Shown piece after piece: positions 13,843-18,020 of a stretch of 64,000 nt of DNA. Position 1 is the stretch's first letter; each line of letters begins with the position of its first letter. The notes below the pieces were generated by a model. It saw only the letters and a list, made by a program, of their open reading frames with translations, searched no databases and was not told the origin of the DNA. The translations under genes were made by a program, and so were the position numbers. The stretch is taken from the NCBI GenBank assembly GCA_964016885.1, contig OZ024747.1, positions 56,544,001 to 56,608,000 of the forward strand. Reading direction: 5' to 3'. Source of the stretch: Eledone cirrhosa (taxonomy: Eukaryota).

Positions 13843-14227
13843 GTATATATATATATATATATATATGTATATTGTATATATATATATGTATATATATATG
13901 TATGTGTGTGTATATTGTGTATATATATATATATGTATATTGTATATATATATATATATATATATTCATCATCATTGTTGGTTTAACGTCCGCTTTCCCT
14001 ACAAGCAAGGGTATATATATATATATATGTAAAAATATATATACACACACAAACATGGTAGTGTGGACTAAGGACCCATGGGGATCTGGATTCAGTCACA
14101 CCAGACAATGCAGCACCTTTGACAATTGTCTTCTGTTATAATCACAGGTTAATCAATGTCTTGTGCATAGAATTTGCTAGAGGGAAACTGCTGAAGCCCA
14201 TTGTATATATAAATATATATACACACA

Positions 14228-14302
<75 letters not shown>

Positions 14303-14619
14303 GTGTGTGCTTATATCCTGTAACTTAGCAGTTTGATATTGTGAGTAATAAAATAAGTAGTAGACTTGAAAATAGAAAAGTATTGGGGTGGATATGATCG
14401 AATAAATCAAAGGGCTGCAGTCTGTTGATGGAAACCAGTGAAAGAATTAAAGAATATTTATTATTATTTTGTTTTACGGGGGGGCGGTGGGCGTGTTTGC
14501 ATAGTGTTGTTACCGCTACCCTTTTAGTTATGGCAATTTTCATTTAAAAATATTTGAATATTTTTTTTGTAATTTTTGGTTAAATGATTTTTGTTATTTC
14601 AGAAAGGAGATTTTGAGAT

Positions 14620-15290
14620 GAATCACAGGCCTTCCTCCTTCTCCAAGTAAGGCCAGCCAAACTCATAGATGTTATCCAACCTACTTGTGTTTATGGTCTA
14701 CACCAGGGTCTCCTGCCATTTGGTTTTGCCTGTAAAATATGTCAAGCAATTCTTTCCTGAGATATTGGTGCTGTGATCACTGAATTCTGAGAAACAGCAG
14801 CTCAACCTGGACTGACTCTCTGATCTCTGAGATATGCATGCTATCAAGAAATATTACTCCAAAGACCCTTCGGAGGAACCCCATTTTGTCTTCTTGTATT
14901 TGCAATCATCTTCCTTTGGTCATTACCTAAAATTCATGACAATGGGTAAGAGTGAATCCTGTTCATCGAGATTATGAACAGGACAGGTGAAAGTATGCAC
15001 ACTTGGTGGAGTCTGGCTCTCACATTGAAGGGGCTTTGATTTAGCATAATGTATCCAGACACAAATACTAGGGCATTCATATAGAGACGTCAGGCCACAG
15101 GAAGCTCTTCTTTGCTACTATACTCCTGCATAAACTTCCAGAGCAGATCACATGATCTTTGTCTTTAAAAGCTTGCCAATCAAATGGTTAAGATTTCCCT
15201 TTTAGTTGTGTAAAAAAACATGACAACCTCTTTATTACTGGTATCATGATATGATGCACTCAGTAAAGCATAGGACTATATGTTAGACAG
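14620..15290 (-). pseudogene. Degenerate RTE-clade LINE fragment (RT plus C-terminus)
   Basis: Minus strand LHQVCILSPVLFIISMNR corresponds to the RT QG..LSP.LF motif. The C-terminal part is similar to 22410-22830 and 57560-58200. Confidence 0.7.
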
Positions 15291-15553
15291 GAACTCCTAA
15301 TCTGTCCGGACGGTCAGTAGACTTGTTTCAATGCTGATTCACTTTGTGAAGACCTGTCCAAACCTTAAATGATGAGGATAATATCTACGTAAGAAAACTC
15401 AACTAGGATAAAACAACATGGGTGAACTATATAATACAGTGAAGGTATACTAACTACAAATTTTATATAGTTGGAAAAGAGATTTAACATTTTAGACTAT
15501 ACTTTTATTGGGAGCTATATCTTTTATATATATATATACATATATATATATAC

Positions 15554-15586
<33 letters not shown>

Positions 15587-16567
15587 TGTGGTCGATTTGC
15601 GTGGCATATTATGTTTTTATTTTTATTATTTTAATATTTTTTAATATTTTTAATATTTTCATTTTTAATATGTAATATTTTTTAGTTTTCTTATTTATTT
15701 GTTTATTATTATTATTATTATTATTATTTTTTGTTTTTGTTTCTGATATTTTTATTAATATATTGAAATCTGTTCTCTATTTCTGCTTGATGGATAATCA
15801 TGTAGAGTAAAGACAAGAATAGTATTGTTAAAATTAATATAGACTCTATATATATGTGTATATATACACATATATGTATACTTAAATTTTTATAGCACAA
15901 TGAGAATGTTCTCTGTGTGAAATAGGGGTTTGCAGAGTTGATCACGTAAATTCACATCGATGTTTGTAGTTATCATATAAACATATGAATTTTTAAAACT
16001 AGATATAAGATCATTACTTTTCACACATTATAGATACGTGTCTCATTCAGGAATACTGATATTTACATTATAGTGCCTGGTTTATACGAACTAATATTTC
16101 TACATTAAAACATAGGGTTTTTAAATTCTGCCTCGCCTATGTCTGGTTACTTTTCATTTTTCTCTCTATATAACGGCTGGTTTCTTTCCTAACCACATAT
16201 ATCTCCCTTACATTAATACTAGAGCTAAATAAATAAATAAATAAATAAATGTATCACTGATACGTCGTTCAACTACCTACTTTTCTCTATATATATCTAT
16301 CTCTATCTATTTCCTCTCTCTATATATCTCTCTCTGTTTCTTTACATGAAGTTCTTCTCTTTATCTCTCTTTCCATCTCTCTATTTTGTTGCATGCATTT
16401 CTTCTTTTTCTTCTTTTTCTTCTTTTTCTTCGTTTTCTTTCTTTCCTTCTTTCTTTCTTTCTTTCTTTCTGTTTACAATTTTTCACTGCCAAATCAACTT
16501 TTTCAAATACAAGTCGATGTTGAACGGTATGTCAAATCTATTTATCTATAAAACTGTCTATATTGTA

Positions 16568-16629
16568 TTTTGTCTGAAGAAGGCATAACATATTGTTAAT
16601 ATGATATCCCTGAAATATATATAATGAAA
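16568..16629 (+). ncRNA. Type I hammerhead ribozyme motif (same family as 615-671)
   Basis: TTTTGT-CTGAAGA-AGG C ATA A CATATT gtt AATATG A TAT C CCT-GAAA-TATATA-TA-ATGAAA. The downstream ~50 bp match 672-715. Confidence 0.78.
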
Positions 16630-16758
16630 TAAATATGGTTTTATAAATATAGTTTCCATTTATTTAATATCGTAAATATACTCCAAATACTTGTTGAGTG
16701 CTTTTATATCAGTTATAAATATTTACTAGTTGTAACCCAACAATTTAAATATAACTTT

Positions 16759-16790
<32 letters not shown>

Positions 16791-16792
<2 letters not shown>

Positions 16793-17053
16793 CGAAGGCC
16801 GTTTCGACGGCTAATTCAGAAAATATGTCAAGCAATTCTTTCCTGAGATATTGGTGCTGTGATCACTGAATTCTGAGAAACAGCAGCTCAACCTGGACTG
16901 ACTCTCTGATCTCTGAGATATGCATGCTATCAAGAAATATTACTCCAAATATCACTCAGTAAAGCATAGGACTATATGTTAGACATGAACTCCTTAATTC
17001 AGAGAATTAGCCGTCGAAACGGCTTGAGCTCAGCCGTCGGGGTCTTACTGGTT

Positions 17054-17055
<2 letters not shown>
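16791..17055. mobile_element. Unclassified (TA)n-embedded element, copy 2, carrying captured local DNA
   Basis: Same termini as 351-455. A perfect 20-bp inverted repeat (16798-16817/17004-17023) encloses copies of 14734-14863 and 15257-15298. Confidence 0.8.
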
Positions 17056-17121
<66 letters not shown>

Positions 17122-17138
17122 AAGATTTTGTTGGATCA

Positions 17139-17228
17139 CCAGTCTGAAGAGCAGATCGATAATGGAGTTGAGTCTGTAACTTCTATGGATGACCCTGAAC
17201 TAATCCTCTGTGAAATACACATAACAGG
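17139..17228 (+). ncRNA. Degenerate hammerhead ribozyme motif
   Basis: CCAGT-CTGAAGA-GCAGA...TCTGT-GAAA-TACACA-TA-ACAGG. Stem I has one mismatch and the stem III palindrome has decayed. Confidence 0.55.
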
Positions 17229-17284
17229 CTGATACACAATAAAAAAACTAAATACATGTACATGAAACTTTATCGATTTTATTA

Positions 17285-17316
<32 letters not shown>

Positions 17317-17333
17317 ACATATATATATATATA

Positions 17334-17364
17334 CTAGCAGTGTATCCCGGCATGTTTGCATGGG
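17334..17364 (-). mobile_element. Helitron-like 3' terminus
   Basis: Minus strand: imperfect GC-rich hairpin CCCATGCAAACATGCCGGG, then ~8 nt, then CTAG|T inside (TA)n. Confidence 0.4.
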
Positions 17365-17417
17365 TAAGAACATTGGTAATAGCACCCCCAATGAGAAACG
17401 TTTATTTGTGAGTGCTT

Positions 17418-18020
17418 GAGGCATAACGGTTAGGTGGTAGCAGATGACGGTTGCGATGAACGCATTCACCACCTCTGCCCGACCTTTCAGGGACAGCTTC
17501 CTCTCAGCCCATTTCTGGGTGAGAGCGGCCACCCTGTTCGTCACCTCACTCCAGATTTTCTCTATCTGGAGGTCCGGACCGAACCAGACCCTGACCAATT
17601 TAACCGGTCCTTCTGTCCAGCGCCCCACGATGCTGTCGGGTGGAATGGACTTGCCTCTCCAGGTGCCAAGCTGCAAGCCCACTGACTTTTCTTGGTTTAA
17701 CTTTGCTCCTGTCACTGCTTCATATTCCTTGAGAGCGGTGCCGAGCATCTGGACATGTCTAGCGCTTGACCAGACCCGCTCTGATTATGCGCCTGTAGAC
17801 TGAGGAGTGGAAAACTGAGAGAAGGTGCTTGCCGTGGTGGTCAGGGTGGCGGTGGTCTTTTGTGTGGTTTTCGCCACGAGTGACCCTTGGAAGTTTCCTC
17901 CCTATTGGGGAATTTTTGAATTTTTTGATATTTCTATCTTCTTGTTATAACCTTTTTTACAGGGCCAAATCCACGCTAGAGAGAACTCGTCCATGGATCT
18001 CGGCAATTTTACCCGCCCTA
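17418..18020 (-). pseudogene. Rearranged Tx1/L1-clade LINE pieces
   Basis: Minus ORF YEAVTGAKLNQEKS..WAERKLSLKGRAEVVNAFI is an L1/Tx1 RT C-terminal region. It adjoins a plus-strand 3'UTR-like piece (CCCTATTGGGGA) and an ORF-end-like piece abutting (GATA)n. Confidence 0.75.

What the first reader, a model, noticed from the sequence alone, without database searches (positions are those of the whole stretch)
16791..17055. Element that has captured two non-contiguous pieces of nearby DNA between a perfect inverted repeat
Seen: 16820-16949 is an exact 130-bp copy of 14734-14863. After a 3-nt filler (TAT), 16953-16994 copies 15257-15298 with one mismatch. The cargo is bracketed by GCCGTTTCGACGGCTAATTC / GAATTAGCCGTCGAAACGGC (perfect 20-bp inverted repeat) and a TAATTCAGA direct repeat, and the whole unit sits in (TA)n. 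The source is a heavily decayed RTE relic, so near identity means a recent local templated copy. The ~390 bp skipped has no GT-AG ends on either strand. Inference: template jumping by an element-associated polymerase/RT, or polymerase-theta-like templated repair at the element.
Basis: partly seen in the sequence, partly recalled or inferred. Interest (0 to 1): 0.8.

Follow-up and report, generated by a model that had tools for sequence, protein, structure and literature searches.

The report
Penelope retroelement joint captures neighbouring DNA
A short two-armed copy of a very abundant Penelope-like jumping gene carries, in the joint between its arms, a near-perfect copy of DNA lying 1.5-2 kb away, and many other copies in this genome do the same with their own neighbourhood, likely because the two freshly made ends borrow nearby DNA as a template while being joined.

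Summary
The 20-bp inverted repeat is not a dedicated capture terminus. It is the inner end of two head-to-head arms of a young Penelope-like retroelement with Hydra-clade motifs, inserted in (TA)n. About 11,600 such joints exist, 95% with spacers under 60 nt. The cargo's only exact match among 40 scored hits is the local source. Capture recurs: of 31 hand-picked spacers with non-element DNA, 19 match their own flank (0.18-4 kb, both sides, both orientations) better than any of 62 control loci. In an unselected run, 5-7 of 50 long spacers were local, about 0.5% of joints. The same joint also holds pieces of the element's ORF, 18S rRNA and an L1-type element. Reads from another individual carry the internal junction and stop matching the source at the cargo's end, so misassembly is unlikely. 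Likely mechanism: two cDNA ends joined by microhomology-primed synthesis, as in L1 twin priming with templated insertions. Open: which polymerase acts, and whether the 393-bp skip is a jump or a donor deletion allele.

The parts
16761..16791 (.). (TA)n target, left side
   Evidence: family copies sit in (TA)n
16792..16817 (-). Left (tail-bearing) arm of the Penelope-like insertion: tail tip fused to the inner 20 nt, about 106 nt missing
   Evidence: this fused form occurs once in the genome
16812..16820 (+). First copy of the 9-nt direct repeat TAATTCAGA (end of left arm plus AG; last A shared with cargo)
16820..16949 (+). Cargo piece 1, exact copy of 14734-14863
16950..16952 (+). TAT filler; AAATAT-ACTC also stands 12 nt earlier in piece 1, so probably a slip-back copy (inferred)
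   Evidence: junction seen in runs X1, X2 and X5
16953..16994 (+). Cargo piece 2, copy of 15257-15298 with T at 16986
   Evidence: T also seen in source context in run X1
16995..17003 (+). Second copy of TAATTCAGA; read as a short first round of synthesis on the left arm's tip (inferred)
17004..17055 (+). Right (short, tail-less) arm: 3' half of the element's hammerhead-like motif (stem II 3' strand, GAAA, stem III, GTC site ending 17038, stem I 3' strand)
   Evidence: 59/60 identical, flanking TA included, to the pLTR end of intact copy L118; fold of the whole motif in L118
17056..17099 (.). (TA)n target, right side, followed by (GA)n
14734..14863 (+). Donor of piece 1, inside a decayed RT-encoding repeat (minus strand)
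14864..15256 (+). 393 bp of donor absent from the cargo; translates as part of the same RT relic, so the intact state is probably ancestral
15257..15298 (+). Donor of piece 2

Best explanation
This is a head-to-head insertion of a Penelope-like retroelement whose central joint holds a copy of nearby genomic DNA, likely added while the two newly made cDNA ends were being joined. Inferred sequence of events: the element's GIY-YIG nuclease cuts both strands of (TA)n. The RT primes on each end from the two start sites of one RNA, giving one arm with a tail and one without, and usually stops near a hairpin inside the hammerhead motif. The two identical 3' single-stranded ends cannot pair, so they are joined by microhomology-primed synthesis. 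Now and then an end first copies exposed neighbouring DNA, its own arm or a stray RNA. Here the right-arm end would have primed three times on the left-hand strand, each time further out: on the arm tip (the 9-nt repeat), at 15298 (42 nt) and at 14863 (130 nt). Shown: the anatomy, family, recurrence and local origin. Inferred: the order of steps, the timing and the enzyme.
For: Family: pieces in joints lead to an intact 717-aa ORF with R-W-K/R, DKT, YRDD, CxCX5C, a C-terminal GIY-YIG-like motif, CxxC and CxH, conserved in 15 aligned homologues. These are the Hydra features of PMC8557442 section 11. Joint is the norm: 11,064 with spacer 0-59 and 527 with 60-300. One tail plus one short arm in 10 of 11 units. 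Both arms share the subfamily variant in 67 of 76 units against 28% expected. A purified PLE cuts and extends both strands from two RT start sites (PMC11167929). Recurrence: 19 of 31 non-element spacers match their own flank better than any of 62 other loci: 10 upstream and 9 downstream, 10 direct and 9 inverted. DNA template: L065 holds a 147/147 fold-back of its own arm running into its own TA flank. Non-local templates: 11 of 43 spacers are element pieces, one is 18S rRNA, one lies next to the ORF of a young L1/Tx1-like element. Timing: pooled cargo divergence 93/2264 (4.1%) is not below arm-arm divergence 33/1140 (2.9%). Reality: 2 raw reads of another individual cross the TAT junction with T and stop matching the source at 15298, and about 2 follow the intact source (restriction sites).
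Against: Contigs of runs X1 and X2 (one sample) carry the TAT junction on into source flank, X1 with the copy's T, which a donor deletion allele would explain without a jump. No listed contig bridges the left or right arm-cargo junction. Microhomology at arm-cargo junctions is patchy, often zero, and the window's left junction has none. The arm-cargo age correlation is weak (rho 0.38, p 0.07, n 23). The 31 spacers were picked by eye and 12 were not uniquely local (5 matched control loci as well or better, 7 had no local match). Several local hits are low-complexity or repeats with small margins (L061, L062, L069, L073, L099, L103, L104, L109). Cargos of 44-290 nt from kilobases away are longer than the under-25-bp insertions typical of Pol-theta (PMC12426944). 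Pfam, NCBIfam and PDB sequence searches gave the ORF no RT or GIY-YIG hit.
Confidence: 0.75

Rival explanations
1. Same capture at the joint, but in one piece: the donor allele already carried the 393-bp deletion with TAT filler and the T variant, and the intact donor came beside the insertion by recombination, by copying from the homologue, or by haplotype switching in the assembly.
For: X1 record (324 nt, depth 4.7) and X2 record (140 nt, depth 11.7) join piece 1-TAT-piece 2 to source flank; X1 has T at 15290 in that context; no contig covers about 15104-15256 in X1-X3. Other cargos differ from their donors by 6-9 nt indels (L055, L060, L069, L124).
Against: Piece 1 has about twice the depth of the downstream flank in both runs (10.1 against 4.7; 24.5 against 13.8), as two copies of piece 1 predict, and the junction links to either continuation through only three shared 31-mers, so the contigs may be graph chimeras (my inference). 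Individual X5 shows both the copy form and the intact source. Two-piece cargos in opposite orientation occur in L058 and L124.
Confidence: 0.3
2. Secondary event: an ordinary palindromic insertion later broke at its centre (cruciform or hairpin cleavage), or received a staggered cut leaving a 9-bp duplication, and host repair patched in local DNA.
For: TAATTCAGA flanks the cargo like a target-site duplication, cargo-free joints of that form exist elsewhere in the family (loose ends at 16995), and the left arm carries a unique deletion.
Against: Cargo is not younger than the arms on pooled divergence. The same joint takes up the element's own ORF and rRNA pieces, which points to RT presence. 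Most other local cargos have both arms intact and no flanking duplication.
Confidence: 0.15
3. The local templates are nascent RNA of the locus, reverse-transcribed by the element's RT after a template switch, rather than DNA.
For: rRNA, an L1-type piece and element ORF pieces are found in the same position; template switching between RNAs is reported for L1 (PMC11702581 section 7).
Against: L065 copies new arm plus flank, a sequence that exists only as DNA after insertion began. No splice ends at the skip. Transcription of the donors was not tested.
Confidence: 0.25
4. Assembly artefact.
For: The unit sits between TA runs, and no listed contig spans all of it.
Against: The internal junction is in two independent samples and the cargo's right boundary in raw reads; 18 other loci show the same design with 0-19% divergence from their donors.
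Confidence: 0.04

Closest known systems
Hydra clade of endonuclease-positive Penelope-like elements (Craig et al. 2021, PMC8557442; section 11, passages and supplement part 2 seen)
   Same: Single ORF with RT then C-terminal GIY-YIG-like region; RW, DKT, CxCX5C, CxxC and CxH motifs; (TA)n target; pLTR tandems; inverted 5'-truncated copy; tail on one end; hammerhead-like motif.
   Different: Unit is 3.53 kb (their families under about 3 kb); tail about 80 nt rather than 30-40; hammerhead core is UUGAGAA with a long stem II insert and differs from the motif listed for Hydra-1_oBim. The passages seen do not describe host DNA inside the inverted joint.
Poseidon element PAc in vitro (Frangieh et al. 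2024, PMC11167929; parts 1-2 of 4 read)
   Same: Cuts and extends both target strands; two internal RT start sites define the tail; the template RNA runs on into the ORF, matching the ORF pieces found in joints here.
   Different: Another clade; the paper leaves joining of the ends unexplained and reports no captured DNA in the parts read.
L1 twin priming with templated insertions and template switching (bioRxiv 10.1101/2024.08.27.596794, passages; PMC11702581, passages and section 7); LINE 5' extra nucleotides from flanks (PMC4245944, passages)
   Same: Two cDNA ends joined with extra templated sequence from the element's RNA, other RNAs or nearby genomic DNA; similar rarity (22 among 3,598 L1 insertions there, about 0.5% here).
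   Different: A different retroelement subclass; their templates are said to lie typically within 15 bp of the site, here 0.18-4 kb; here both arms are copies of the same end and the events are germline.
Pol-theta templated insertions (review PMC12426944, passages)
   Same: Patchwork, iterative inserts with fillers copied from near the junction (window, L084, L155).
   Different: Usually under 25 bp and from the break flanks; does not account for rRNA or distant ORF pieces without an RT.
Host DNA capture by Adineta vaga Penelope elements (Arkhipova et al. 2013, PMC3846280, passages)
   Same: Host sequence between pLTRs; head-to-head joints; template jumps proposed.
   Different: Spacers of 0.9-1.5 kb before the 3' pLTR, or genes between direct pLTRs, with no local donor reported in the passages seen; joints explained there by self-priming on an antisense template.

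Membership tests
EN+ Penelope-like element | Single ORF with RT and GIY-YIG endonuclease | tested here: inconclusive
   717-aa ORF with conserved FDI..Y, G..D, YRDDG and VIY...YIG motifs in a 16-row alignment; no Pfam, NCBIfam or PDB hit for it; best homologue P0001 has a Pfam GIY-YIG hit; structure job not finished
EN+ Penelope-like element | Partial tandems forming pseudo-LTRs | tested here: met
   20-mer repeats at 3,531-nt spacing in L118-L120 with a truncated copy upstream; tandem ORFs
EN+ Penelope-like element | Adjacent inverted 5'-truncated copy and a tail at one end | tested here: met
   11,064 short head-to-head joints; tail on one arm in 10 of 11 units
EN+ Penelope-like element | Hammerhead motif in the pLTR | tested here: inconclusive
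   MFE fold gives the type I three-stem layout with core UUGAGAA, GAAA and GUC, the U3-A8 variant noted in PMC4209133; z-score 0.08 and no Rfam hammerhead hit; cleavage untested
Hydra clade | RWK and DKT motifs | tested here: met
   RLRWR (K in most homologues) at residue 35 and SDKTGN at 116
Hydra clade | CxCX5C linker; CxxC and CxH beside the conserved E and N | tested here: met
   residues 572-580, 670-676 and 689-700
Hydra clade | Insertion into (TA)n | tested here: met
Hydra clade | RT phylogeny groups with Hydra references | not tested
   no named Hydra reference sequence was returned by a tool in usable form
MITE or other TIR DNA transposon with cargo (Pack-type) | Inverted repeats form the outer termini and one interior is dispersed in many copies | tested here: not met
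   the repeat lies inside the ends, arms are asymmetric pLTR pieces, each interior is private and the window's cargo has one donor
Pol-theta templated insertion | Dependence on Pol-theta | not testable with these tools
   needs a genetic or biochemical test
Pol-theta templated insertion | Short insert from break flank with microhomology at junctions | tested here: inconclusive
   short fillers fit; main pieces are 44-290 nt from up to 4 kb away and microhomology is patchy

The most novel reading that the evidence does not exclude
The telomerase-related RT of this Penelope-like element itself jumps from its RNA onto genomic DNA up to 4 kb away, onto its own new arm and onto bystander RNAs before the two cDNA ends are sealed. 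Each insertion would then be a small local-duplication machine, and the roughly 11,600 joints in this one genome a natural record of the unsolved end-joining step of Penelope retrotransposition.
Probability: 0.3. Interest if true: 0.75.

Novelty: new variant of a known kind. Interest (0 to 1): 0.55.

Why it matters
How Penelope-like elements form their head-to-head ends is an open question (PMC8557442 and PMC11167929 both say so). Foreign sequence in the joint shows that the two ends can pass through a free, priming-competent state, which favours joining of two cDNA ends over simple self-priming. One young family offers thousands of joints and an intact ORF, so the step can be studied by counting and in vitro. 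It also adds a germline route to short local duplications of 50-300 bp. The behaviour parallels what is known for L1, so it extends a known kind of event to another retroelement subclass rather than revealing new chemistry. Four paper searches found no report of local donors at Penelope inverted joints; subscription papers are not covered.

Tried and rejected
Rfam on 14000-18000 gave only (TA)n look-alikes, and no hammerhead hit on L118. Pfam, NCBIfam and PDB sequence searches named no domain in the ORF. The structure prediction was still unfinished, so no fold evidence is used. No RNA holder was listed. Extending the flanks to 15 kb each side found no donor for L057, L072 or L076, and only a 41-nt repeat match for L077. 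Rows dropped: L075, L082, L083, L122, L126 (other palindromic families or a chance motif on one side) and L064-L066, L068, L085 (nested arms or a tandem duplication). MITE or Pack-type transposon was rejected (see membership). Splicing was rejected: skip ends are GA..TG. Naiad clade was first suspected from the N-terminus and dropped because the nuclease-like motifs are C-terminal. Look-ups of earlier findings by words, sequence and place returned nothing. No relatives are held, so orthologous empty sites could not be compared. Supplements of the two bioRxiv-type L1 papers, which give template distances, were not seen.

Full report
Observation. The two cargo pieces, the filler, the 20-bp inverted repeat, the 9-nt direct repeat and the (TA)n setting are all at the stated places. 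A genome-wide DNA search scored 40 of 573 candidates and found exact matches only at the copy and at the donor 2 kb upstream; other members of the donor's repeat family were 73-88% identical. The cargo is therefore a recent copy of this donor. The donor translates to broken RT-like peptides on the minus strand across both pieces and the gap; calling it RTE is from recall.

What the flanks are. The 20-mer has 36,540 exact matches in the 3.0-Gb genome. Typical copies are two arms head to head in (TA)n: 11,064 pairs have a spacer of 0-59 nt and 527 a spacer of 60-300 nt. One arm carries an extra tail of about 80 nt in 10 of 11 units examined, and both arms share the same subfamily variant in 67 of 76 units against 28% expected (nested units may be counted more than once). 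Element pieces inside some spacers gave an N-terminal peptide that found many open frames of about 784 codons and tandems at about 3.53 kb among 150 scored matches. Copy L118 encodes 717 aa from its ATG, has 2,052 homologues at E <= 1e-20 among 8,000 scored, and shows the motifs that PMC8557442 section 11 gives for the Hydra clade. Profile libraries did not name its domains and the structure job did not finish, so the RT and nuclease assignment rests on motifs. The pLTR folds into a type I hammerhead layout with a U3-A8 core (variant noted in PMC4209133), without Rfam support. The window's right arm is the 3' half of that motif; most short arms listed end within about 10 nt inside the 20-mer, at the foot of a hairpin within stem II. 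The window's left arm has lost about 106 nt, a form unique in the genome.

Is capture recurrent? I fetched 10-kb stretches around spacers that looked foreign in the listings (the lists are cut at 50 sites). Of 43 spacers tested, the window included, 11 were pieces of the element, 1 was (TA)n and 31 held at least 44 nt of other sequence. Of these 31, 19 matched their own flank better than any of 62 other 10-kb loci, 5 matched locally but a control locus as well or better (L058, L060, L102, L105, L124), and 7 had no local match. Eight of them are low-complexity or repeat sequence with smaller margins. For an unselected rate I classed all first 50 sites: 5 clear local captures, 2 probable, 1 non-local, 1 unclear (L158), the other 41 element-derived, nested or simple. 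That extrapolates to about 50-75 local captures in spacers of 60 nt or more, roughly 0.5% of joints. Non-local cargos include an 18S rRNA fragment (L072) and a piece beside the ORF of a young L1/Tx1-like element with at least 39 identical copies (L057; family label recalled).

Template and timing. L065 contains a 147/147 inverted copy of its own arm running into its own TA flank, which needs a DNA template. ORF pieces with no copy within 5 kb (L056, L121) and rRNA suggest RNA templates at the same joint, though cDNA fragments are possible. Cargo-donor divergence pooled over 23 loci (4.1%) is not lower than arm-arm divergence (2.9%), with a weak positive correlation (rho 0.38, p 0.07); this fits capture at insertion but does not prove it. 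Junctions show 0-7 nt overlap with the arms, short fillers or A-runs, and some spacers are iterated patchworks of the arm end (L084, L155).

Reads. Six runs were listed and five were laid. Contigs of X1 and X2 (one sample, possibly the assembled one) contain the piece 1-TAT-piece 2 junction. In X5, another individual and study, 2 reads from one start cross the junction with T and stop matching the source exactly at 15298, while about 2 reads follow the intact donor. The start and stop places fit an SphI-MluCI library (enzyme pair inferred). So copy and intact donor both appear real. Against the jump: the X1 and X2 contigs continue from the junction into donor flank, X1 with the copy's T. This is either a donor allele with the deletion or a graph chimera through three shared 31-mers; the roughly 2:1 depth of piece 1 over the downstream flank in both runs favours the chimera, but T in donor context suggests that the one mismatch is a donor polymorphism. 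I put the jump at about 0.65 and the deletion allele at about 0.3. No listed contig bridges either arm-cargo junction.

Mechanism. A purified Penelope-like protein cuts and extends both target strands from two RT start sites (PMC11167929). That yields two identical single-stranded cDNA ends that must be joined. I infer microhomology-primed joining with occasional copying from whatever template is at hand. For this locus one primer, the right-arm end, moving outward along the exposed left strand accounts for the 9-nt repeat, piece 2 and piece 1 in order. Whether the element's RT or a host polymerase such as Pol-theta does the DNA-templated part is not determined.

Comparison and verdict. The insertion structure is known for Penelope-like elements (PMC8557442). 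Templated insertions and template switches are known for L1 and other LINEs and for Pol-theta repair, and host DNA between pLTRs was noted in a rotifer. In some searches I found no report that the inverted joint of a Penelope-like element takes up DNA from its own kilobase neighbourhood. Papers seen: PMC11167929 parts 1-2 of 4; PMC8557442 passages, section 11 and supplement part 2; PMC11702581 passages and section 7; passages only of 10.1101/2024.08.27.596794, PMC12426944, PMC4245944, PMC4209133, PMC3846280 and PMC13282606. The host looks like a cephalopod from recalled repeat features; this was not tested. Verdict: real, recurrent, a new variant of a known kind; interest 0.55.

Noticed in passing
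L072:4885-5086: A 192-nt 18S rRNA fragment sits in the joint of one insertion, with no donor within 15 kb each side.
   Followed up: yes
L058:4958-5112; L059:4869-5087; L068; G000:C1:18731501-18731555: A-runs of up to about 25 nt extend the inner ends of the arms, on both arms in L059; possibly reiterative copying of a UUU tract by the RT.
   Followed up: no
L084:5000-5056; L155:4970-5030; G000:C12:35584147-35584358: Joints made of three or four tandem re-copies of the arm's last 15-20 nt.
   Followed up: partly
L118:2810-2922: Hammerhead-like motif with a U3-A8 core and a hairpin inserted in stem II; short arms end at the foot of that hairpin, not at the predicted cut site.
   Followed up: partly
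G000:C1:437200456-437211171; G000:C1:91476405-91487154; L119: Arrays of four long open frames at about 3.53-3.54 kb spacing and head-to-head full-length pairs: the family looks recently active.
   Followed up: partly
L075, L082, L083, L126: Long near-perfect palindromes of other families, one (L083 type) recurring many times in the listings with variable centres; probably other head-to-head retroelement insertions.
   Followed up: no
window:341-465; window:38350-38422: Two older copies of the same family at 83-86% identity.
   Followed up: partly
L124; G000:C4:351980449, 352046281, 352311165: The same cargo-bearing complex insertion appears three times within 330 kb, apparently by segmental duplication; 18S-like matches lie at C4:352.07-352.15 Mb.
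   Followed up: no
L130:1-2146: 18S rRNA copies are dispersed over many contigs (32 matches to the captured fragment).
   Followed up: no
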